Assembly (NCBI GenBank): GCA_902783675.1
Contig: CACZRW010000002.1
Coordinates: 1 to 38,144, forward strand
Direction: 5' to 3'
DNA length: 38,144 nucleotides
Source of the DNA: an uncultured Pseudomonadota bacterium
GTDB taxonomy: Bacteria > Pseudomonadota > Alphaproteobacteria > CACZRW01
The first letter of the stretch is position 1, and the number at the start of each line of letters is the position of its first letter. A program made the translations under genes and the position numbers. Under the pieces are notes generated by a model. The model was not told the origin of the DNA and made no database searches. It worked only from the letters and a program-made list of their open reading frames with translations. Below are positions 33-38,144 of the stretch, piece after piece.

Positions 33-252
33 GGATTCCCAGCCTTCGGCTGAGAATGACGGGAAAAAGAAAGCTGAGAATAACGGGGAAATAATTAGAA
101 ATGAATAATTAGGAATTAGGAATGATTGCGTTTTTGCTTCCCGCAAAAACAACTTTTATCTTTTCATTCCTCATTTCTCATTCCTCATTCCTCATTTCTC
201 ATTCCTCATTTCTCATTCCTCATTTCTCATTCCTCATTTCTCATTCCTCATT
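33..252. repeat. Palindromic heptad-array intergenic element, copy 1
   Basis: Left flank is GGATTCCC..GAATGACGGG (33-63). Five in-phase heptads AATAATT/AGAAATG/AATAATT/AGGAATT/AGGAATG lie at 90-124. The conserved core ATTGCGTTTTTGCTTCCCGCAAAAACAAC has an 8-bp stem GTTTTTGC (130-137) / GCAAAAAC (143-150) and loop TTCCC. It is followed by 12.5 tandem complementary heptads CATTCCT/CATTTCT at 165-252. The same architecture recurs at 8769-8921 and 26966-27088. Confidence 0.9.
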
Positions 253-8768: not shown

Positions 8769-8921
8769 GGATCCCCGAGCTGAGCCCTGCGGGCTCCCTC
8801 GAGGATGACGGGAAAATAATGAGGAATTAGTAATTAGGAATTAGGAATGATTGCGTTTTTGCTTCCCGCAAAAACAACTTTTATTTTTTTATTTCTCATT
8901 TCTCATTTCTCATTTCTCATT
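8769..8921. repeat. Palindromic heptad-array intergenic element, copy 2
   Basis: Left flank GGATCCCC..GAGGATGACGGG. Five in-phase heptads (AATAATG/AGGAATT/AGTAATT/AGGAATT/AGGAATG) lie at 8815-8849. The core is identical to copy 1, with stem 8855-8862 / 8868-8875. The right arm is 4.5 x (T/C)ATTTCT at 8890-8921. Confidence 0.9.
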
Positions 8922-13807: not shown

Positions 13808-13949
13808 TTTTCTCTTTTCTAAATCTAGTAAAAACCGCAGAAAACCAAGGGCTTCCCGAAACTCTGCTCAGTATAGCAAAGCGAACCCAAAAAACAAGGT
13901 ATTTTTTATGGGGAAAAGGGCTTTTAAAAGGCACGAAAAAAGTGTTTTT

Positions 13950-17399: not shown

Positions 17400-17553
17400 A
17401 ATTCTCTCTCCTTTATTTGAATACAGGCGGGGATTATGGGGGAAAAAATCATTTTTGGCAAGGCGCTTTGCATAGCCTTTTGTTCGCTTGCAAAAAAACA
17501 GACGAGGGGCTACTATTTTAAAAAACCACCTTAGCCAGGGAAGGAGGGGGCTC

Positions 17554-18372: not shown

Positions 18373-18505
18373 CCGTTTTTTTGCCGCCGCTTCCCGCAGT
18401 TTTTTCGCCTTTGCCGCAGGGTAAACTTTTTTGATGATTTTTTTGTTTTTTTGTGTTATAGTGCCCCCGCTTTTGCAGGCTTTTGATTAAAAGGAGGTTT
18501 GCACT

Positions 18506-24763: not shown

Positions 24764-24795
24764 AACCTTAACCCTTAACCCTTAAACCTTAAACC
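24764..24795. repeat. CCTTAA(C/A)-type short-period repeat, 32-mer identical to 32519-32550
   Basis: AACCTTAACCCTTAACCCTTAAACCTTAAACC contains no G on the + strand. An exact second copy lies 7.7 kb away. Confidence 0.9.
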
Positions 24796-26228: not shown

Positions 26229-26291
26229 CTTATAAACTTATAAGCTTATAAGCTTATCAACCAATAACCCTTAACCCTTAACCTTTAACCC
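26229..26291. repeat. Compound short-period repeat: 4 x 8-mer CTTATNNN (26229-26260) then CCCTTAA-type array (26264-26291)
   Basis: CTTATAAA CTTATAAG CTTATAAG CTTATCAA is followed by ATAACCCTTAACCCTTAACCTTTAACCC. ATAAGCTTAT is itself palindromic. The array ends 10 nt before the response-regulator ATG. Confidence 0.85.
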
Positions 26292-26301
26292 AAGTTTTAC
26301 C

Positions 26302-26973
26302 ATGGCATCAGGACGCAGATTTTTACTTTTTTCCGAAAACTCCCTTTTTGCCGAGGCGCTTAAAGAGCAAATTGCGGCGCTTCCCGAGACCAAAGGGCTG
26401 GAAGTGACTTCCTCGTTTAAAGAGGCGGTTGATTTGGCGAAAAAGGATTTTTTTGACGCTGCCATCGTGAATGACAGCATTGAGCTTTGCGAAGGGTTAA
26501 GAAAGACGGGCTTTGATCGCACGATTATTCTTATTGCCCCCGCGTCCAAAGAGCCCGAGGATGATACTTCCGTCAGCGATTTTATAGAGACGCCGCTTCG
26601 GTTTACGGCCTTTGCCTCGCGTCTTTACCACAGCATTATCAGCCACGAGAACCAAGATAAAAAGGGCTTCGTCGTGGGCTACTTTACCTTTAATCCCAAG
26701 ACCAGAACCGCCAAGTCCAACCTTGATTCTCGTGAGTATCCGCTTACCGAGAAAGAGGCGGATATTCTCACTTATCTTTACCGTGCCGAGGGTAAAACCG
26801 TGGATAAAGACACGCTTTTGCGTGAGGTATGGGGCTATAACGCCGAAGTCGCCACGCACACGCTGGAGACGCATATTTACAGATTAAGGCAGAAAATCGA
26901 CCTTGATCCCAGCCACCCTTTGATTATTTGCGACGAAGGGGGATATAGGCTGGTTAACGAGCAAAAACAATGA
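26302..26973 (+). CDS. OmpR/PhoB-family winged-helix response regulator with degenerate (probably phosphorylation-independent) receiver domain
   Basis: The C-terminal trans_reg_C pattern is clear (LTEKEADILTYLYRAEGKTVDKDTLLREVWGY..THTLETHIYRLRQKI..GGYRL). The receiver has SE in place of the DD pair, IVND at the phospho-acceptor strand and ETP in place of KP. There is no obvious SD and no adjacent histidine kinase. Confidence 0.8.
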   Translation: MASGRRFLLFSENSLFAEALKEQIAALPETKGLEVTSSFKEAVDLAKKDFFDAAIVNDSIELCEGLRKTGFDRTIILIAPASKEPEDDTSVSDFIETPLRFTAFASRLYHSIISHENQDKKGFVVGYFTFNPKTRTAKSNLDSREYPLTEKEADILTYLYRAEGKTVDKDTLLREVWGYNAEVATHTLETHIYRLRQKIDLDPSHPLIICDEGGYRLVNEQKQ

Positions 26974-27088
26974 GGAATTAGGAATGAATAAGTAGGAATG
27001 ATTGCGTTTTTGCTTCCCGCAAAAACAAGATTTATATTTTCTCATTTCTCATTCCTCATTCCTCATTCCTCATTTCTCATTCCTCATT
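26966..27088. repeat. Palindromic heptad-array intergenic element, copy 3
   Basis: Five in-phase heptads (AACAATG/AGGAATT/AGGAATG/AATAAGT/AGGAATG) lie at 26966-27000. The core has stem 27006-27013 / 27019-27026. The right arm is 6.5 x CATTYCT at 27043-27088. The element fills the whole gap between two convergent stop codons (26971-26973 and 27092-27094). Confidence 0.9.
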
Positions 27089-31416: not shown

Positions 31417-32064
31417 ATGCTGACCGCACCTAATTTGGAAAAAATCCCCTATATCGAGCACGGTTTTTGCACTGCCGCCGAATCCGAGGCGCTTAAAAAG
31501 ACGCACAAAAAGCACCTGCTTTTGTTAAAGCAAGCGCACGACGACGGCGTAATTTTTGCTACTTCTTTGGACATAGGGCAAGATGTTGAGGCGGACGCCA
31601 TGGCGGCGATAGAGCCCGAGCTGATGCTGGGGATAAAGACCGCCGACTGCGTCCCCGTGCTTTTGGCGGACAAGGAAAAGCAAGTCATAGGAGCCATTCA
31701 CGCCGGCTGGAAAAGCGCGCTTAAAGGTATAGTGAAAAACGGCGTGGACGCCATGCTTCACCTTGGCGCTGCTCGTGAAAACATAGCCGCGGCCGTCGGT
31801 CCCTCAATCCGCTTTGCCGACTATGAAGTGGGAAAGGATTTTTACAATGCTTTTATGGAGCACGACCCCGAAGCGGAAGTATTTTTCACGACGGACAAGA
31901 AATACTTTAACCTGCCCGAATATGTTAAAAGCAAATTATTTGAAGAGGGAATAGAGGATATTTTCGATACCGAAATAAATACTTATAAAGACACGAGTTT
32001 TATTTCCTACCGCCGCGATAATAAAGACGAAAATCGCAACATTAGTTGGATTAAGATAAAGTAG
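31417..32064 (+). CDS. pgeF: YfiH/PgeF (DUF152, laccase-domain) family protein, short variant
   Basis: HGF, KQAHDDGV, KTADCVPVLL and IHAGWKSALKG motifs. At 215 aa it appears to lack about 30 residues normally present between the HGF and QxH blocks. Confidence 0.8.
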   Translation: MLTAPNLEKIPYIEHGFCTAAESEALKKTHKKHLLLLKQAHDDGVIFATSLDIGQDVEADAMAAIEPELMLGIKTADCVPVLLADKEKQVIGAIHAGWKSALKGIVKNGVDAMLHLGAARENIAAAVGPSIRFADYEVGKDFYNAFMEHDPEAEVFFTTDKKYFNLPEYVKSKLFEEGIEDIFDTEINTYKDTSFISYRRDNKDENRNISWIKIK

Positions 32065-32155
32065 GATAACGCAATAATCCTTGCCAAGTTTTTGCGATTG
32101 CACTAACCTGCCCGAGGTTGAAATTAACCCCTAACCAAAATATAAGGAGAATAAA

Positions 32156-32392
32156 ATGCCATCTGTAGTAAGTGATTTATGTAAGCTTTGTTTAAACTGC
32201 ACCGAAGTTTGCCCCGTCGATGCTTTCCATAAAGGCGACACTCAAGTCGTCGTTGATCCCGACACCTGCATTGACTGCGGCGTCTGCATTTCCGAATGCC
32301 CGACCGGCGCGATTAAGTCCTCGGACGAAGCGGACGAGAAGTGGGTAAAGTTTAACGCCGAGAAAGCGAAGGAATATCCCGCCGCAAAATAA
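32156..32392 (+). CDS. 2x[4Fe-4S] ferredoxin
   Basis: Two CxxCxxCxxxCP motifs (CKLCLNCTEVCP and CIDCGVCISECP). SD AAGGAG lies upstream. The length is 78 aa. Confidence 0.9.
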   Translation: MPSVVSDLCKLCLNCTEVCPVDAFHKGDTQVVVDPDTCIDCGVCISECPTGAIKSSDEADEKWVKFNAEKAKEYPAAK

Positions 32393-32442
32393 AATAGTTT
32401 TATGAGCTTATAAGGTGATAAGTTTATAAGTTGAATAAGAAG

Positions 32443-32473
32443 AAGGGCGTCGTCGTTCGCACGCCCTTTTTTC
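32443..32473 (+). terminator. Intrinsic terminator after the ferredoxin gene
   Basis: Stem AGGGCGT (32444-32450) / ACGCCCT (32461-32467) has a 10-nt loop and is followed by a T-run. Confidence 0.75.
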
Positions 32474-32492
32474 TTTATCCTTTCTCCTTAAA

Positions 32493-32550
32493 CTCATCAC
32501 CTTATCACCTTATAAACTAACCTTAACCCTTAACCCTTAAACCTTAAACC
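32493..32550. repeat. Compound short-period repeat: 8-mers CTCATCAC/CTTATCAC/CTTATAAA then a 32-mer CCTTAA-type array
   Basis: It has the same two-part organisation as 26229-26291. The last 32 nt (32519-32550) are identical to 24764-24795. Confidence 0.85.
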
Positions 32551-32610
32551 TTTAATTAACCAAAACCGTCCTAGCATCACGGGTGAAAAAGCGTTTTTTT
32601 GAAAAAATAG

Positions 32611-32637
32611 TTTTTTTTGGCAACATTTTATGCTATA
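32611..32637 (+). promoter_or_regulatory. Conserved 27-nt promoter-like motif TTTTTTTTGGCAACATTTTATGCTATA, copy 1 (upstream of the 1258-aa ORF)
   Basis: It is identical to 36558-36584. It contains an extended -10-like TGCTATACT ending about 35 nt before the ATG, preceded by a T-tract. Confidence 0.55.
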
Positions 32638-32673
32638 CTGCACATATTCGTATGGATTTTATAGGAGTTTACC

Positions 32674-35600
32674 ATGAGCAATCCGAGTTTTGAAGCAAGC
32701 GTATTCGCAAGTGACGGCGTTTTCAGCTATGTTGATATGGAAAGGGTTTTCTTCGGAAGAGGAATGCGCAGCGCGCTTCCGTCCGTGCCTATGGATCAAA
32801 TCAAGCAAATGTTTAATCAAATCGGCTTCACCAGTCGACAAAAGGAAGCTATTTTTAATTTAGCGCAAAAAGATGTGAACAATGCTTTAAAGGATTCCAC
32901 ATACTTTTCTAACTTTTTGAACCCCATGAACGGGAACAGGCCCGCTGACGGCAAAAGAGGCGACGGTAAAAGGCGCTCTTATGAGGGTAAGAATGAAATT
33001 GCTCTTAAGCTTTTGGGTCATTTAGCCGAGACAATCGGACTTTGCGATTCTACTATATCGGAAAGCTCAAGATTTGCGACCAAAGACGACAATATGGACG
33101 GCTTGATAAAAATAGCCGCCGGGGGTCAGGTTGTCATTTCCGACAATCCCGCAGAGTGGTATGTCTCTCCTTTGGACATGTCACTTATGCTTTTGGACGC
33201 GATTAAAAAGGATCCTGTCGCGCGCAAGAAAATCTTTAACCGCTATGCCGAGGAAACAAAGTTAGAGATTGACTTTTCGACTTTCGGCAAGGACAAAGAA
33301 AAGGTAGAGGAAGAGTTTGAAAATGCCCTTGTTGACCTTTTAAAAACGGGTATAAATACAAACTTCCCCAGAGCTGCCTTTAGGGCGAATCAGCATGTTA
33401 TCGCCTACAGCACCACGGTGGAAGAGTTTAAGAAGTATGTTGCAAGCTACGAAGAAAAATATGCTAACCTTAAAACGAGCTACGAAAATCTTAAAGTAGA
33501 TCCGCTTAATTATGTGGCGTTCTTCCGCGAACTGGACAGAGTCTCAAGCGAAGGCATGCAATTCGGCGGCATTGATGTTGACGGCAAAAAAATCTCCGGC
33601 GTTCCCGCTGGCGAACGCACCTTTGACATTTTAACGGATATCTTGGAAAGCCCCGCCTTTGCGTCCGAAAAATACGCTCCGGTAAGGGCAGATGCTTTGC
33701 TGCGTATTGTTGACTTTACCTACGCCCGCGACCCCGCCTTGCGCGAAGACGCGATGAAGTGGCTTACGGATGGAGATAAAGCAACCAAACTTGCCAACGA
33801 GATTAACGCCCAAATTAGAATCTTTAACGAAGGTAAAGAGGAAAAAGACAGGGTCTCCGAAATTGATCCTTATAAGCAATTCGGCTTTAGAAAGGAATCC
33901 AAAGGCTCTGATAGAATCGTTTTCGACCCGAATGCGAAGATTTTAAAAATCCGCGCGCTTTTGGTGGATTTACCTCCGACTCGCGCTACCGTGGCGATAT
34001 GGAAAAAGGCGGAAGAGACCTATAAAAACGCCGACGAAGATTTGATGGATAAGCTGGAAAGATACACCTATGACTATGTCGTCAGATCGGGTGCCGTCGC
34101 CAGATCCAAAACGCAAAGCTTTAACTTGCTTAACGACAGCGTTGTCGAGCAGTTGAAAAATCTTAGCGAGAAATACGATCCGCAAAAGCCCGGCACATGG
34201 GATTCTTTGGATGTGCAAATTGCCGCCAAGATTGCCGAGCTGGAAGAAATGAGCAAATCCGCTCCGGATCCCACCGCTCCCGACGAGGTAAGCTTCCGCG
34301 CCTTTGTTGAGGAAGTAAAGCAGTTTATGGCGGACGCCAAGCCCAGCCCCAAAGAAACAAACGGCGCCATTACGCTTCGCAATGTTGACAACCTGTTAGG
34401 CGGGCTGATTGACGATCGCCTCGGCGTAATAAGCGGCGGACACTATGACTTCAAGTTAAAGTTCTTTGAAAAGGACTTTGCCGAAATCAAAAGACAGCAG
34501 GAGAAGGGTGACTTTGCCGTGATAGAACACAGCCGTCCCGCCTCCACCGCCATTACGGAATTGATGAAAATGGACTCGGCCGAAGCAACTTCTGTAGTTA
34601 TTGAAGCGGCAGAAAAGTTTTGGAAAGAGCTGGAAAACTCTCCCGAGGAAAATCATGCGCGTATTGAGTTGAAGGAATCTCCTTTCAAAGGTCTCACCTA
34701 TGCAAAGATAACCAAGATTGAGCGCAAGAATGATGTCGCGGACGACATGAACAAAACACCTTATTCCTACGCGGTTATTCATTTTGAAGCGAACAAACAG
34801 AAGCACCAAATCGTCACTACCGGCGGCCACACTTATATAAGCCGCAACGAAAACGGTGAATTACCGCCTTTCACGGTATGGAAGGATTTAGCGGGAATCT
34901 ATAAAAACCTTGGTGCGAATCGGATAAATGTCGAGTGCGACGATTTGGCAACATACTTCTCGGTGGCTTCGGCTTTTGCCAGCTTGGGTATTGAATGCGT
35001 GAACGATCAGGTAAAGCTCTCTCCCGCTCAAGAAGAGCAGATTCGCAAGATACTTGATGCGGCAATCAGACGCGATGTTGCCACCGGCGCCAAGACTAAA
35101 GAGCGCCTCTCTACCCGCCGAGCAAAAAGCGCGGTTGATTTAAGCCAAGAGAAAGTAGATGAGTTAAAAGAGACGATGGACATGGCCCTTTGTGCCGAGG
35201 CGCTTAAAGAAAACTCCGAGCGCCTTGACGCGGCATCTCTTGAAACACAGACGCGCGTAACCGAGCTTTCGGAAAAGTCTACCGTTGAGCTGGCAAAAGA
35301 TTGGGTAGAGGTTCGCGACGCCGGCCTTACCAAATCCTTAAATATCGCCGCAGAAAGCGAGATTGCCGAGCACTTTGCCGAGGAGAAACCCGGCGCTTCG
35401 GATATTCTTGCTTTGGCGCGGTTGCAGCTGCAAAAGGAAGGCGGCGAATCCTATGATATCAAGGATTTAGGCAAAGCCATTTCCGAGACGCCCGTCGATA
35501 AGGCGGAATACATCGCGGAGAAAAAGGATAAGGTCGTGGAGTTTGTTGACGCCATCAGGCCCGACCATCCCGATACCGCCAAAGCTATTGAGGACGTCCT

Positions 35601-36450
35601 TGATAATGACTTTGACCCCTCCAATCCCGGTGCGGATCCTGTGGACACCTTTGCGGCGGTCAGAAACATCTACCACTTGCAAAAGAATGAGGATATAGCC
35701 GATGACGCTTTGCTTGAATCTCTTATCGAGGAATTCAAGCGGCAAGCGAACATCAACGAATCCGTAGCTCACTACTTAAAGCTCAAGAATCATTGCAAAG
35801 GCAAGCCCGTGATTGATAAAGAGCTCAAAGAAGAAGTCGATAACTTCAACTACGCCGCGTCTTACGCACTCGCCGAGCTTCGCAAGAGCCCCGACGAGAT
35901 TGTGAAGATTCTTGATAAGAACAGCGCGAAAAAGGATTTGCAAGACAAAGTCGCGACCGGCACCGAGCTTAATTTGCAGGACATTGTCGACATCGCCAAA
36001 GCCGTCGCCAAAGAATGGAACGGCACCGTGGTTACACCGCAGCGTGCGATGGAGCTTGAGCAGCAAAGAAACTATGAGGAAGTCGAGCGCGCCTATAAGC
36101 AAATCAGCAAGAAAGGTGCGACCATTACCGACAACAACATGCGCAAAATCGCCGGCTATGTCTATATGGAAGCTTCAAACGAGATACTCGGCACAAAGCC
36201 CGTGGATTACCAAGGCTTAAAGGAGCAAATCGATTTTTTGGCCGTTTCCAAAATTGCCGAACTCGGTAAAAAGATAGGCAATGCCTCAATGCAAGCGGCG
36301 AAAAGCTTTGATGATTTGGATTCAACCGCCCTTGACAATAAAGCATATGCCTACTGCCTTGGAGCTCTCGGACTCGAGAAGATGGAAGCGTTAAAGGCCG
36401 TGCAGAAGGACTTCAAGCGCTACATCAAGGAAGGTAAAACGCGTAGTTAA
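32674..36450 (+). CDS. Large orphan protein, 1258 aa, acidic and predicted helical, with no signal peptide or TM segment and a basic C-terminal tip
   Basis: Uninterrupted ORF with AGGAG 8 nt upstream of the ATG. Antisense ORFs are all short. I recognise no catalytic or family motif. The protein ends ..KDFKRYIKEGKTRS. Confidence 0.8.
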   Translation: MSNPSFEASVFASDGVFSYVDMERVFFGRGMRSALPSVPMDQIKQMFNQIGFTSRQKEAIFNLAQKDVNNALKDSTYFSNFLNPMNGNRPADGKRGDGKRRSYEGKNEIALKLLGHLAETIGLCDSTISESSRFATKDDNMDGLIKIAAGGQVVISDNPAEWYVSPLDMSLMLLDAIKKDPVARKKIFNRYAEETKLEIDFSTFGKDKEKVEEEFENALVDLLKTGINTNFPRAAFRANQHVIAYSTTVEEFKKYVASYEEKYANLKTSYENLKVDPLNYVAFFRELDRVSSEGMQFGGIDVDGKKISGVPAGERTFDILTDILESPAFASEKYAPVRADALLRIVDFTYARDPALREDAMKWLTDGDKATKLANEINAQIRIFNEGKEEKDRVSEIDPYKQFGFRKESKGSDRIVFDPNAKILKIRALLVDLPPTRATVAIWKKAEETYKNADEDLMDKLERYTYDYVVRSGAVARSKTQSFNLLNDSVVEQLKNLSEKYDPQKPGTWDSLDVQIAAKIAELEEMSKSAPDPTAPDEVSFRAFVEEVKQFMADAKPSPKETNGAITLRNVDNLLGGLIDDRLGVISGGHYDFKLKFFEKDFAEIKRQQEKGDFAVIEHSRPASTAITELMKMDSAEATSVVIEAAEKFWKELENSPEENHARIELKESPFKGLTYAKITKIERKNDVADDMNKTPYSYAVIHFEANKQKHQIVTTGGHTYISRNENGELPPFTVWKDLAGIYKNLGANRINVECDDLATYFSVASAFASLGIECVNDQVKLSPAQEEQIRKILDAAIRRDVATGAKTKERLSTRRAKSAVDLSQEKVDELKETMDMALCAEALKENSERLDAASLETQTRVTELSEKSTVELAKDWVEVRDAGLTKSLNIAAESEIAEHFAEEKPGASDILALARLQLQKEGGESYDIKDLGKAISETPVDKAEYIAEKKDKVVEFVDAIRPDHPDTAKAIEDVLDNDFDPSNPGADPVDTFAAVRNIYHLQKNEDIADDALLESLIEEFKRQANINESVAHYLKLKNHCKGKPVIDKELKEEVDNFNYAASYALAELRKSPDEIVKILDKNSAKKDLQDKVATGTELNLQDIVDIAKAVAKEWNGTVVTPQRAMELEQQRNYEEVERAYKQISKKGATITDNNMRKIAGYVYMEASNEILGTKPVDYQGLKEQIDFLAVSKIAELGKKIGNASMQAAKSFDDLDSTALDNKAYAYCLGALGLEKMEALKAVQKDFKRYIKEGKTRS

Positions 36451-36474
36451 AGCCGAATCGGTGCCCAAGAGTAT

Positions 36475-36526
36475 AGCGGGGATATCGGGAAAACATTGCT
36501 TTTCTGCGGATTTTCCCCGCTTTATG
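36475..36526 (+). terminator. Probable terminator after the 1258-aa ORF (long hairpin with nested stem)
   Basis: Outer 8-bp stem AGCGGGGA (36475-36482) / TCCCCGCT (36514-36521), an inner GAAAA/TTTTC pairing, and a following TTAT. Confidence 0.45.
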
Positions 36527-36557
36527 CTAAAAAATGAAAAAAGAATTAAAAAAAAGC

Positions 36558-36584
36558 TTTTTTTTGGCAACATTTTATGCTATA
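36558..36584 (+). promoter_or_regulatory. Conserved 27-nt promoter-like motif, copy 2 (upstream of the partial orphan ORF)
   Basis: It is identical to 32611-32637. Its TGCTATATT extended -10-like sequence ends about 70 nt before the ATG at 36656. Confidence 0.55.
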
Positions 36585-36655
36585 TTCTTTAGCGACTTAG
36601 TTTGGAACACTCGTTTCGAGCGATTAACTTAATATAATAAAAGGGGAAAATTAGA

Positions 36656-38144
36656 ATGACCGAAGTTGATACAAGCGTAAACACAAGCGAGGATATCTTT
36701 GCCAGAAAGGATATAAAAAAGGAGCCTGTTGAGGCTCTTGAAAAAGTGGCAAAGCCGAAAACCGCACCTGATTTTAAATCATTTTCTAGTGCAGAGGCAG
36801 GTACTTTTGAGGCGCTCGCCAAAGAAGGCGACAGCGATTTGGCAGAGGGTTTGAAAGTTAACTCCGGAATCGGCGAAATCAGCGGTAGCCTTGAGGACGA
36901 AAAAGAACAAGAAAAAGAAATTATGTTCCAAAGTCCTTTTGCCGAAATGTCGGACGAGGAGCTTGCCGAGGCACTTAGAAAAGCGAACAAGAACACTTAT
37001 TGGGAGTTTGGCCTTTTCACCGAACAAAAGCGCCGCGCCGGTAAGGTTGAATCTTATATTTATGAAAAGGACGGCGACAGGCTTCCCGTTCTTCCCACCT
37101 ATACCAATAAGAAGGCAAGGGAAATCTGCGGCGAACCGGTAGCGGTAAGCTTTGGCGATTTGCCCAGAAGCAAAAATGTGAACTCCATCGGTAACCCGAA
37201 CTCGATTCGTTTTTCCACGCATTTGGAAATTCACTTTGACATTACCGAAGGCGCCGGCACCAAAGAAGGCAAGTCTGCCGCTTATATGAAAGCGCAAAGC
37301 TTCCTTGCCGCCGCATACAGGGGTGACACTTTGGGCGGTAAGCCGGTCAGAACTTTCAGACTCACCAACATGAGCGAGGAAGAATTGAAGGCTTGGGGCG
37401 AAGTTCGCGCCGCTTTTGAAGGTCAAGGCAAGAAGATTGAATTCATTCTTACCGACGAACAACAAAAGGTTTTCGATCGCTATGCTGCTCAGTTTGACGA
37501 GATTACAAAGCTTAACCGCGCACTTGTCAGTGATAGAAATTTTGACCTCAGCAAACCGGAATCCTTGGAAAACCTTGAAGGTTTACCCAAGCAAGGCAAA
37601 GATTTCTATGCTCGTGGTGAAGGGCTTGAGTCGCTTGAAGAACCTGAGCCCATGCCCAAAATGGACTATACTCCTGCCAACTCAAAAGAAGCGGTAGAAG
37701 AGGTAGCTCCCGAGGTAGCCTCCGAAACGGTTGCCGAGAAAGCTCCCGAAGTGGTTGAGGCGGAAGTTATTGAAGCTAAAGAGATTGAAGAACCTTCAAC
37801 GGAGCTTGCCGAGGAAGGAACCAATGGCATTGATAAAACCGTTGACGACAAGGCTTTTGAGGAAGTTTTGGATGGGTTCAGAAATGGCGAATGGTTTGAG
37901 ACCAATTCTTTTGAAACTATATCAAAAATGTCTGAGTGGATGAACAGTGATAAAGACTCCGCTAATGAAGTTGCCGAGATGGAAAATGCCACCGCTACTA
38001 ATGGCGACGCGATTCCCGTCGGTCCTGTAACGGAAGAGCCCGTAGCAGAAGAAAACAAGGAGTTCGTCAATCTGCCTGATCATAGTAAGTTCTTCGAAAG
38101 GATGGACAAGAAGGCATTGGTTGCTGTGAAGGGTACTCAGCCCG
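36656..38144 (+). CDS. Orphan acidic protein, 5' partial view (at least 496 aa, ORF continues past the window end); not present in the supplied ORF track
   Basis: I translated frame 2 from the ATG at 36656 manually (MTEVDTSVNTSEDIFARKDIKKEPVEALEK...KALVAVKGTQP) and found no stop through 38144. An in-frame TAA lies at 36638-36640 and AAAGGGGA lies upstream. The minus-strand track ORFs here (36589-36996, 36779-37465, 37666-38070) are shadows. Confidence 0.8.
   Translation, partial: MTEVDTSVNTSEDIFARKDIKKEPVEALEKVAKPKTAPDFKSFSSAEAGTFEALAKEGDSDLAEGLKVNSGIGEISGSLEDEKEQEKEIMFQSPFAEMSDEELAEALRKANKNTYWEFGLFTEQKRRAGKVESYIYEKDGDRLPVLPTYTNKKAREICGEPVAVSFGDLPRSKNVNSIGNPNSIRFSTHLEIHFDITEGAGTKEGKSAAYMKAQSFLAAAYRGDTLGGKPVRTFRLTNMSEEELKAWGEVRAAFEGQGKKIEFILTDEQQKVFDRYAAQFDEITKLNRALVSDRNFDLSKPESLENLEGLPKQGKDFYARGEGLESLEEPEPMPKMDYTPANSKEAVEEVAPEVASETVAEKAPEVVEAEVIEAKEIEEPSTELAEEGTNGIDKTVDDKAFEEVLDGFRNGEWFETNSFETISKMSEWMNSDKDSANEVAEMENATATNGDAIPVGPVTEEPVAEENKEFVNLPDHSKFFERMDKKALVAVKGTQP

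What the first reader, a model, noticed from the sequence alone, without database searches (positions are those of the whole stretch)
32611..32637. Identical 27-nt promoter-like motif in front of both orphan genes
TTTTTTTTGGCAACATTTTATGCTATA occurs at 32611-32637 and again at 36558-36584, each time upstream of a large orphan ORF, with unrelated sequence on either side. It contains TGCTATA(C/T)T, which fits an extended -10 (TGnTATAAT-like) preceded by a T-tract. It also contains TGGCAA-N5-TATGC, which resembles a sigma-54 -24/-12 element but has a spacer one nt too long. Exact conservation of 27 nt implies a shared dedicated regulator or sigma factor, and so co-regulation of the two orphans as one unit.
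Basis: partly seen in the sequence, partly recalled or inferred. Interest (0 to 1): 0.62.

Follow-up and report, generated by a model that had tools for sequence, protein, structure and literature searches.

The report
Shared promoter cassette before orphan genes
The identical 27-base motif is real. It is the core of a roughly 40-base promoter-like cassette that sits in front of every gene of a small cluster of large proteins of unknown function, and it is conserved from rumen bacteria to distant relatives in an anaerobic digester, which points to a dedicated but still unidentified way of switching these genes on.

Summary
Observation confirmed. The 27-mer is exact at 32611-32637 and 36558-36584, with none expected by chance.

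It is the core of a ~40-nt cassette:
- an A-tract
- a T8 run
- a TTGGCAAY box
- TRTGn
- TAnnnT

The cassette lies 34-115 nt upstream of, and co-oriented with, every gene of a module made of two protein families with no Pfam domain. I call these A (orphan 1) and B (orphan 2).

The cassette is invariant in five related rumen genomes whose A proteins are 65-84% identical. It recurs, with informative substitutions, in three much more distant lineages (A proteins 23-28% identical) in a different gene neighbourhood. That gives 16 sites.

TAnnnT and TRTGn hold at 16/16 sites. The sigma-54 GG and GC doublets are broken at 2 and 1 sites, and their spacing is never canonical. I therefore read it as a sigma-70-type extended -10 promoter, not a sigma-54 promoter.

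The TTGnCAAY box sits only 11 nt from the -10 hexamer, 6 bp closer than a -35 element. It is conserved and changes in step across all sites of one genome. This suggests a dedicated factor, which remains unidentified.

The cassette is not a dispersed repeat: there are two copies per 110-249 kb contig.

Metatranscriptome contigs show both genes are expressed. Contig starts at 32656 and 36594 fit the predicted start sites, but read-through across copy 2 also occurs. No start site has been mapped properly.

The parts
32599..32639 (+). Promoter cassette, copy 1, in front of orphan 1. Sequence: TTGAAAAAATAGTTTTTTTTGGCAACATTTTATGCTATACT.
   Evidence: Exact repeat, extended repeat. The block is invariant in 5 genomes while the flanks diverge. 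The nhmmer profile scores it 35 bits.
32602..32607 (+). A6 tract at about -44 to -39, where a proximal UP-element subsite would lie.
   Evidence: An A-run is present at 15/16 sites. The position is inferred by counting back from the -10 hexamer. The UP-element consensus is from my own knowledge.
32611..32618 (+). T8 tract occupying -35 to -28, where a canonical -35 hexamer would sit.
   Evidence: It is T7-T8 at 14/16 sites. Tract length varies by one base in L002 and in rumen populations.
32617..32624 (+). TTGGCAAC box (TTGnCAAY), at -29 to -22, 11 nt upstream of the -10 hexamer.
   Evidence: TTGnCA holds at 15/16 sites, and G(-27) and CAA(-25..-23) at 16/16. Canonical promoters in the same genomes use a 17-nt spacer.
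32629..32633 (+). TATGC, matching TRTGn (extended -10, also called the -16 region).
   Evidence: TRTGn holds at 16/16 sites. TGn at -15 to -13 is the sigma-70 region 3 contact (PMC2988021).
32634..32639 (+). -10 hexamer TATACT (TAnnnT).
   Evidence: TAnnnT holds at 16/16 sites. The variants are TATACT, TATATT, TATAGT, TAACAT, TAAAAT, TAATAT and TAGCCT. Cross-species conservation stops exactly at the last T.
32644..32647 (+). Predicted transcription start for orphan 1 (inferred, not mapped).
   Evidence: It lies 5-8 nt after the -10 hexamer. In 16 RNA runs no contig covers 32556-32655, and one contig (X26) starts at 32656.
32674..36450 (+). Orphan 1, A-family protein (1258 aa), function unknown.
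   Evidence: No Pfam hit, PDB sequence hit or fold hit. Orthologues; remote homologues.
36473..36523 (+). Conserved stem-loop after orphan 1 (GCGGGG...CCCCGC), probably a leaky terminator or stabiliser.
   Evidence: RNAalifold finds compensatory changes in the stem. RNA contigs bridge it in X26, X29 and X33.
36546..36586 (+). Promoter cassette, copy 2, in front of orphan 2. Elements: A8 36548-36555, T8 36558-36565, box 36564-36571, TRTGn 36576-36580, -10 TATATT 36581-36586.
   Evidence: The nhmmer profile scores it 39.8 bits.
36591..36594 (+). Predicted transcription start for orphan 2 (inferred).
   Evidence: An RNA contig of run X36 starts at 36594, 8 nt after the -10 hexamer. Orphan 2 is covered 2-5 times more broadly than orphan 1 in five RNA runs.
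36656..38144 (+). Orphan 2, B-family protein, cut by the end of the window. It is 626-689 aa in relatives.
   Evidence: The orthologue in L002 has a weak link to L156_B (E 2.5e-4).

Best explanation
Each copy is a self-contained promoter cassette for one gene of a conserved two-family gene module (A = orphan 1, B = orphan 2).

Proposed mechanism:
- RNA polymerase carrying a sigma-70-type factor recognises TRTGn plus TAnnnT (an extended -10) and starts about 7 nt downstream, near 32646 and 36592.
- The upstream A-tract acts like an UP element.
- There is no -35 hexamer at the normal distance. A T8 run and a conserved TTGnCAAY box sit at -35 to -22 instead.
- This box is the docking site of a lineage-specific trans-acting factor. 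The factor could be an activator that replaces -35 recognition, a repressor, or an unusual sigma region 4. It would give the module its own regulatory identity.

Shown: the anatomy, the conservation, the specificity for these genes, and that the genes are expressed.

Inferred: the start sites, the type of sigma factor, and the existence of the extra factor.
For: 1. The repeat is exact and not due to chance.
2. Phylogenetic footprint. A 45-nt block (copy 1) and a ~38-nt block (copy 2) are invariant in 5 genomes whose A proteins are 65-84% identical, while the flanks are scrambled. Conservation ends at the last T of TATAnT, and only hexamer position 5 varies.
3. Remote lineages (A proteins 23-28% identical, different neighbours: infA, HxlR, FadL-like) carry the same cassette before the A gene and before each following B-type gene, giving 2, 4 and 2 copies.
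4. Over 16 sites: TAnnnT 16/16, TRTGn 16/16, same strand 16/16, and 34-115 nt from the start codon.
5. Specificity:
   - a profile search of 1.21 Mb separates true sites (>=30 bits) from everything else (<=21 bits), with none in 80 control alphaproteobacterial loci;
   - contigs of 110, 179 and 249 kb hold exactly two copies each.
6. Terminator-like hairpins lie directly upstream of the B-gene cassettes.
7. Other genes in the same genomes have ordinary TTGnCA-N17-TAnnnT promoters, so the cassette is a distinct class.
8. Box and spacer variants are shared by all sites within a genome but differ between lineages (AAC-A...A, AAT-T...G, AAT-T...A).
9. RNA evidence:
   - within 20 kb, only the porin, the two orphans, fdx, L25 and one small gene yield metatranscriptome contigs;
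   - contigs start at 32656 and 36594;
   - orphan 2 is covered more broadly than orphan 1.
Against: - No start site is mapped. The RNA data are assembled contigs without strand information, and only two contig starts fit the prediction.
- Contigs in three runs bridge copy 2 (36364-36731), so orphan 2 is at least partly transcribed by read-through from orphan 1.
- No candidate factor was found. The nearby regulators differ between lineages: an OmpR-type protein in the window clade, HxlR in the others.
- Ordinary promoters in this clade (fdx, atpI) are also conserved across their whole length, spacer included. Cross-species invariance of the spacer alone therefore does not prove an extra factor.
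- Concerted variation within a genome could come from short-tract gene conversion rather than co-evolution with a protein.
Confidence: 0.55

Rival explanations
1. A plain, strong constitutive sigma-70 promoter (UP-like A-tract plus extended -10) with no dedicated factor. The two copies are alike because one promoter segment was duplicated with the genes and is kept identical by selection for strength and/or by gene conversion.
For: - All the sigma-70 features are met.
- Other expressed genes in the window have T-rich, TGn-extended -10 promoters without a -35: dnaN at 13870-13878(-), and the 133-aa gene at about 18430-18462.
- The fdx and atpI promoters are also conserved through their spacers.
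- The orphans are among the few genes with RNA contigs.
Against: G(-27), CAA(-25..-23) and TTTT(-20..-17) are invariant at 16/16 sites across lineages whose proteins share only 23-28% identity. Sigma-70 holoenzyme is not known to read these spacer positions. The cassette is found only at A- and B-family genes.
Confidence: 0.2
2. The whole motif is read by an alternative sigma-70-family factor (not the housekeeping one). Its -35-like target TTGnCAA and -10-like target GCTAnnnT are spaced 6 bp closer than usual.
For: - TTGGCA, TTGTCA and TCGACA are all variants of TTGACA.
- TTGGCAA and GCTATACT resemble the Caulobacter RpoD elements TTGaCgS and GCtANAWC (PMC8144410).
- The regulon is very small and specific.
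- Variation is concerted within genomes.
Against: I know of no sigma factor with an 11-nt hexamer spacing. The -10 part follows housekeeping rules exactly (TGn + TAnnnT). No sigma gene was seen near the module in about 60 kb of neighbourhoods.
Confidence: 0.13
3. A sigma-54 (-24/-12) promoter with a spacer one base longer than usual, activated by an enhancer-binding protein.
For: TGGCAA-N7-TGC resembles TGGCAC-N6-TGC. One survey describes the spacing loosely as 5-7 nt (PMC12316311). The upstream DNA is A/T-rich.
Against: - The GG-to-GC distance is 13 instead of 12 at all 16 sites.
- GG is lost at 2 sites (TGTCAA, CGACAA) and GC at 1 site (TGT), while TAnnnT and TG are never lost.
- Conservation continues 6 nt beyond the -12 element and follows the -10 hexamer rule.
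- No conserved upstream activator site is shared by the two copies.
Confidence: 0.05
4. Not a promoter. It could be a recombination or attachment site, the end of a small mobile repeat, or an element that acts in the RNA of a longer transcript.
For: The copies are direct repeats flanking a 3.9-kb gene. RNA contigs run across copy 2 in three runs.
Against: - There are only two copies per 110-249 kb, always just upstream of a start codon and on the same strand.
- No excision junction between the copies appears in four DNA runs.
- No Rfam match.
- The substitution pattern (TA...T, TG) makes sense for DNA recognition by sigma, not for RNA pairing.
Confidence: 0.04

Closest known systems
Extended -10 (TGn, or TRTGn '-16 region') sigma-70 promoters that need no -35 element, often helped by an UP element
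   Same: TGn at -15 to -13 and TAnnnT at -12 to -7 at all 16 sites. There is no -35 hexamer at 16-18 nt. An A-tract sits where the proximal UP subsite would lie. The cassette is 34-115 nt upstream of the start codon.
   Different: A further ~13 nt of the spacer (T-run, GnCAAY, TTTT) is invariant and found only at one gene module. Ordinary extended -10 promoters show no such constraint.
Bacteriophage T4 middle promoters (MotA box plus sigma-70 -10; sigma appropriation by AsiA and MotA)
   Same: A sigma-70 -10 hexamer, frequently with TGn, combined with a conserved 8-10-bp box near -30 that replaces the -35 and sits too close to the -10 for normal region 4 contact. In T4 the box is 12 +/- 1 bp from the -10 (PMC2988021).
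   Different: - The box sequence differs (TTGnCAAY vs (a/t)3TGCTTtA) and it lies closer (9-11 nt).
- The genes are chromosomal in bacteria, not phage genes.
- No MotA or AsiA homologue is known here.
- The regulon is 2-4 genes, not about 60.
Caulobacter RpoD consensus TTGaCgS / GCtANAWC (alphaproteobacterial housekeeping promoter)
   Same: TTGGCAA and GCTATACT each match 4-5 of the 7 specified consensus positions. The host is alphaproteobacterium-like (GyrB 67% to Alphaproteobacteria).
   Different: Only 8 nt lie between the two elements here. In the canonical fdx promoter of the same genome the gap is 14 nt, and the published range, from memory, is 10-14 nt.
Sigma-54 -24/-12 promoters (TGGCAC-N5-TTGCW)
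   Same: TGGCAA and TGC motifs at roughly the right distance.
   Different: The spacing is +1 at every site. The GG or GC doublets are broken at 3 of 16 sites. The conserved TAnnnT lies downstream.

Membership tests
Sigma-70 extended -10 promoter | -10 hexamer with T at -12, A at -11 and T at -7 (TAnnnT) | tested here: met
   16/16 sites. Only the three middle positions vary.
Sigma-70 extended -10 promoter | TG at -15/-14, one base upstream of the hexamer | tested here: met
   TRTGn holds at 16/16 sites.
Sigma-70 extended -10 promoter | Transcription starts 5-9 nt downstream of the hexamer | tested here: inconclusive
   Unstranded RNA contigs start at 32656 (17 nt after the hexamer) and at 36594 (8 nt after). 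Bridging contigs also exist at copy 2.
Canonical sigma-70 promoter | TTGACA-like hexamer 16-18 nt upstream of the -10 | tested here: not met
   That position is TTTTTT. The TTGnCA box is 11 nt away.
Sigma-54 promoter | Invariant GG (-24) and GC (-12) doublets | tested here: not met
   GG at 14/16 sites, GC at 15/16.
Sigma-54 promoter | GG and GC separated by exactly 10 nt | tested here: not met
   11 nt at all 16 sites.
Sigma-54 promoter | rpoN and an enhancer-binding protein in the genome | not testable with these tools
   Only contig neighbourhoods were available. No Sigma54_activat domain was listed in the loci.
T4-type middle promoter (sigma appropriation) | MotA box (a/t)3TGCTTtA, 12 +/- 1 bp from the -10 | tested here: not met
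   The box is TTGnCAAY and ends 9 nt from the hexamer (consensus from PMC2988021).
T4-type middle promoter (sigma appropriation) | MotA-like activator and AsiA-like co-activator | not testable with these tools
   No whole genome was available.
UP element | A/T-rich DNA at -38 to -59 with an A-run at -46 to -38 | tested here: met
   An A5-A8 run at -44 to -39 at 15/16 sites. The function itself was not tested.
Dispersed repeat or mobile element end | Many copies, also at non-promoter sites | tested here: not met
   Two copies per 110-249 kb contig and none elsewhere in the public metagenome collection searched. No extra hit in 1.21 Mb.
Known RNA family | Match to an Rfam covariance model | tested here: not met
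   No match at gathering score in the window. Only chance-level hits (E >= 0.07) in 32050-36900.

The most novel reading that the evidence does not exclude
The cassette is read by a dedicated transcription device that replaces -35 recognition. This would be either a cellular counterpart of phage T4 sigma appropriation (an activator docking on a box near -27) or a sigma-70-family factor with a -35/-10 geometry compressed by about 6 bp. The device has co-evolved with its sites and controls a conserved module of very large proteins of unknown function in uncultured anaerobic alphaproteobacterium-like bacteria from rumen and digesters.
Probability: 0.3. Interest if true: 0.7.

Novelty: new variant of a known kind. 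Interest (0 to 1): 0.5.

Why it matters
The cassette gives a precise, testable handle on a gene module that is otherwise a blank. The module consists of two families of large, conserved proteins with no recognisable domain. They are expressed in the rumen and kept, together with their private promoter, across very deep divergence and in different genomic contexts.

If the misplaced TTGnCAAY box is bound by a dedicated factor, this would be a compact natural example of -35 replacement in a cellular genome. It would also be a ready-made bait for DNA-affinity capture of the regulator.

If no factor exists, it is simply a strong extended -10 promoter that was duplicated. That would be useful as a part for expression in these uncultured lineages, but not surprising.

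Tried and rejected
- Exact 20-mer scan of 185,579 representative genomes: 0 hits. The lineage is absent from that collection. GyrB is at best 67% identical to diverse Alphaproteobacteria, so no finer taxonomy was obtained.
- Exact look-up of orphan 1 failed. Word-indexed protein searches found only five close clusters. Only the exhaustive phmmer search found the remote homologues.
- Viral contigs: one hit, inside a coding ORF and without the A and T tracts, so I rejected it as chance.
- Orphan 1 and orphan 2 are not paralogues (best E 0.12). A tandem gene duplication therefore does not explain the shared motif.
- Protein function:
  - no Pfam hit and no PDB sequence hit;
  - the AlphaFold model of orphan 1 residues 240-940 (pLDDT 71.8) has no Foldseek match below E 0.1;
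  - the single-sequence model of the orphan 2 core is unusable (pLDDT 46.5);
  - the search with the orphan 2 core returned nothing.
- RNA evidence is limited to unstranded assembled contigs. The apparent excess depth over the intergenic region (9-13 vs 2-5) is probably the summed signal of co-existing strains that share the invariant stretch, so I did not read it as a separate small RNA.
- The TTGGCAA look-alike at 17443-17477 has the same TGGCAA-N8-TGC spacing but lacks TAnnnT, and a canonical promoter (TTGCAA-N17-TACTAT) lies next to it. I did not count it as a site.
- The imperfect dyad TGGCA-N8-TGCTA and an IHF-like CAA-N4-TTR core were considered. They are too weak to build on.

Full report
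OBSERVATION

The 27-mer TTTTTTTTGGCAACATTTTATGCTATA occurs exactly at 32611-32637 and 36558-36584 on the + strand. Allowing 3 mismatches adds no further site, and none of 100 dinucleotide-preserving shuffles produced a match. The two copies stay similar for another 12 nt upstream, giving 39 nt at 90% identity through an A-tract. They also share the T that completes TATAnT. Copy 1 precedes a 1258-aa ORF (32674-36450). Copy 2 precedes an ORF starting at 36656 that runs off the window. Neither protein matches Pfam, and they are not homologous to each other.

CONTEXT

The window is an ordinary chromosomal stretch. It carries gap, pgk, hemY, tsaD, gpsA, gyrB, recF, dnaN, lolA, ftsK, ychF, pth, the gene for ribosomal protein L25, prs, two porins, an OmpR-type regulator, ggt, an M48 protease, dsbA, lgt and a ferredoxin. 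GyrB is at most 67% identical to diverse Alphaproteobacteria, and no close genome is in the representative set. The DNA is found in bovine gut and rumen metagenomes.

COMPARATIVE EVIDENCE, CLOSE RELATIVES

Orphan 1 has four orthologue clusters at 65-84% identity. All are syntenic, lying between the ferredoxin gene and the ATP synthase operon. In all five genomes both cassettes are present.

- Upstream of orphan 1, a 45-nt block (TTTTTTGAAAAAATAGTTTTTTTTGGCAACATTTTATGCTATACT) is invariant, while the next ~15 nt and the sequence further upstream are scrambled.
- Upstream of orphan 2 the block is AAAAAAAGC-T7/8-GGCAA(C/A)ATTTTATGCTATA(T/C/G)T.
- Conservation stops exactly at the last T of the hexamer, and only hexamer position 5 varies.

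COMPARATIVE EVIDENCE, DISTANT RELATIVES

An exhaustive phmmer search found three remote homologues of orphan 1, at 24-28% identity in that search; pairwise BLAST against window orphan 1 gives 23-25%. Their contigs (L153; L154/L155; L156) have a different neighbourhood: infA, an HxlR regulator and a FadL-like porin. L156 comes from a pulp-mill anaerobic digester metagenome (PMC11556013).

The same cassette nevertheless precedes the homologue and each following gene without a Pfam domain. Examples:
- AAAAAAGGC TTTTTTTTGGCAAT TTTTTATGC TAACAT
- AAAAAACAC TTTTCTTTGTCAAT TTTTTGTGC TATATT
- TAAAACCGC TTTTTTTCGACAAT ATTTTATGT TAGCCT

BLAST groups the downstream genes into a B family. The L002 orthologue of orphan 2 is weakly linked to it (E 2.5e-4). 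The unit is therefore a conserved A+B gene module in which every gene has its own cassette. Terminator-like hairpins often lie just upstream of the B-gene cassettes.

WHAT THE SUBSTITUTIONS SAY

Over 16 sites:
- TAnnnT 16/16
- TRTGn 16/16
- TTGnCA 15/16
- GG 14/16
- GC 15/16
- same strand as the gene 16/16
- distance to the start codon 34-115 nt

The consensus is .aaaaaa..ctTTTtTTtGgCAA..TTTTaTGcTA...T.

The hexamer variants are TATACT, TATATT, TATAGT, TAACAT, TAAAAT, TAATAT and TAGCCT. They keep precisely the three positions that sigma-70 region 2 reads. TG sits at -15/-14, where region 3 reads it (PMC2988021). This is the signature of an extended -10 promoter.

The sigma-54 reading fails for four reasons. 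The GG-to-GC distance is 13 rather than 12 at every site. GG is replaced by GT or GA at two sites. GC is replaced by GT at one site. Conservation also continues through TAnnnT. One survey describes sigma-54 spacing loosely, so spacing alone would not be decisive. The broken doublets and the -10 rule are.

THE ODD PART

With the hexamer at -12 to -7, the T8 run fills -35 to -28 and TTGGCA fills -29 to -24. That leaves 11 nt between the two hexamers. Canonical promoters in the same genomes have 17 nt:
- fdx: TTGCCA-N17-TAACCT
- atpI: TTGACT-N17-TATTTT
- the aldo-keto reductase gene: TTGCAA-N17-TACTAT

The box resembles a -35 hexamer and the Caulobacter TTGaCgS element (PMC8144410), but it lies about half a helical turn too close to the -10. 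G(-27), CAA(-25..-23) and TTTT(-20..-17) are invariant at all 16 sites despite very deep divergence.

Lineage-specific variants are shared by all sites of a genome:
- window clade: AAC-A...A, TATAnT
- L153: AAT-T...G, TATATT
- L154/L156: AAT-T...A, mostly TAAnAT

This concerted pattern fits co-evolution with a trans-acting factor, or short-tract gene conversion. The nearest known architecture is the T4 middle promoter. There a MotA box centred at -30, 12 +/- 1 bp from a sigma-70 -10 hexamer that often carries TGn, replaces the -35. The box sequence, exact distance and biological setting differ here, so this is a resemblance in how it may work, not membership.

SPECIFICITY

- A relaxed scan of the window and close loci finds only the two sites per genome.
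- A scan of the metagenome collection with TTTTGGCAANNNNNTATGCTATA returned 66 loci. Only six carry the full motif. They are the two known sites on each of three contigs of 110, 179 and 249 kb.
Nothing else exceeds 21 bits, including 80 alphaproteobacterial control loci.
- One viral hit lies inside an ORF and lacks the tracts.

One limit remains: more degenerate copies elsewhere in these genomes could not be searched, because only contig neighbourhoods were available.

RNA

Only unstranded assembled contigs from rumen metatranscriptomes were available.

- Across 20 kb, contigs appear for one porin, both orphans, fdx, L25 and a 133-aa gene. Most housekeeping neighbours have none. The orphans are thus comparatively well expressed, and DNA carry-over is low.
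- Orphan 2 is covered over 18-49% of its length, against 2-20% for orphan 1, in five runs. This fits extra initiation between the genes.
- No contig covers 32556-32655 in 16 runs.
- One contig starts at 32656 (X26) and one at 36594 (X36). The predicted starts are about 32646 and 36592.
- Contigs in X26, X29 and X33 bridge 36364-36731. The hairpin after orphan 1 is therefore leaky and read-through exists.

This evidence is supportive but not decisive.

THE PROTEINS

Both families remain unexplained.
- No Pfam or PDB sequence hits.
- The AlphaFold model of orphan 1 residues 240-940 (pLDDT 71.8) is mostly helical with one beta-rich domain, and has no Foldseek match.
- Orphan 2 has a ~200-residue core that is about 85% identical among species whose full proteins are about 61-66% identical.

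VERDICT

The extended -10 reading and the idea of one co-regulated unit are supported and considerably extended. The sigma-54 reading is rejected. The dedicated factor is a reasonable but unproven inference.

My probabilities, which do not add up to 1 because they are stated separately:
- about 0.8 that this is a promoter read through a sigma-70-type -10 element
- about 0.45-0.5 that a dedicated factor reads the box
- 0.2 for a plain strong promoter that was duplicated
- 0.13 for an unusual sigma-70-family factor
- 0.05 for sigma-54
- 0.04 for something that is not a promoter

Noticed in passing
window 164-252, 8818-8848, 8891-8921, 24764-24795, 26229-26291, 27041-27088, 32519-32552: Many intergenic regions carry short tandem arrays of 7-8-nt units (TCATTCC x12.7, AATTAGG, ATTTCTC, AACCTTA, TAACCCT, CTCATTC, CTTATAAA). 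The AACCTTA array just upstream of cassette 1 attracts 10-50 times excess depth in metagenomes and many unrelated contigs, so similar arrays are widespread.
   Followed up: partly
window 13870-13878 (-) and about 18430-18462 (+): dnaN (AAAAAATACCTTGTTTTTTGGGTTCGCTTTGCTATACT) and a 133-aa gene without a Pfam domain (TTTTTTTGTTTTTTTGTGTTATAGT) also have T-rich, TGn-extended -10 promoter-like sequences without a -35 hexamer. The 133-aa gene has RNA contigs. This promoter style may be common in the lineage, with only the GnCAAY box specific to the orphan module.
   Followed up: partly
window 17443-17477 (+): AAAAAATCATTTTTGGCAAGGCGCTTTGCATAGCC lies between an OmpH-like gene and an aldo-keto reductase gene. 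It shares the A-tract, the T-tract and the TGGCAA-N8-TGC spacing with the cassette and looks even more sigma-54-like (TTTGCA), but it lacks TAnnnT. Conservation in relatives was not checked.
   Followed up: no
window 26302-26973 (+): An OmpR/PhoB-type regulator in which only the C-terminal DNA-binding domain is recognised by Pfam and no receiver domain is scored. It is conserved in synteny about 6 kb upstream of the orphans in the window clade but is absent from the module's neighbourhood in the distant lineages.
   Followed up: no
window 36929-37546 (+) (orphan 2 residues 92-297): An extremely conserved ~200-residue core (83-86% identity where the whole proteins are 61-66% identical), flanked by acidic, poorly conserved regions. 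It is weakly alignable to L156_B. No homologue was found by the word-indexed search, and the single-sequence model was poor.
   Followed up: partly
window 36610-36620 (+): A small hairpin (CTCG-TTT-CGAG) in the predicted 5' leader of orphan 2. It is kept with compensatory changes in L004 and L006 and deleted in L002.
   Followed up: partly
window 36555-36558: The A8-GC-T8 junction of cassette 2 shows single-base length polymorphism in rumen populations, and it is T7 in L002. Homopolymer slippage here would shift the upstream A-tract relative to the core promoter.
   Followed up: no
window 32405-32441 / 32482-32518: 37-nt inverted repeats (81% complementary) of CTTATAAG-like units bracket the ferredoxin terminator (32444-32470). 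One strain in run X3 replaces 67 nt here with different sequence.
   Followed up: no
L153 2174-2345; L154 4329-4476; L156 4351-4499: The divergent HxlR / FadL-like intergenic region next to the module in the distant lineages holds a conserved inverted repeat (TAGGCACTTT...AAAGTGCCTA). It is probably the HxlR operator and is unrelated to the cassette.
   Followed up: no
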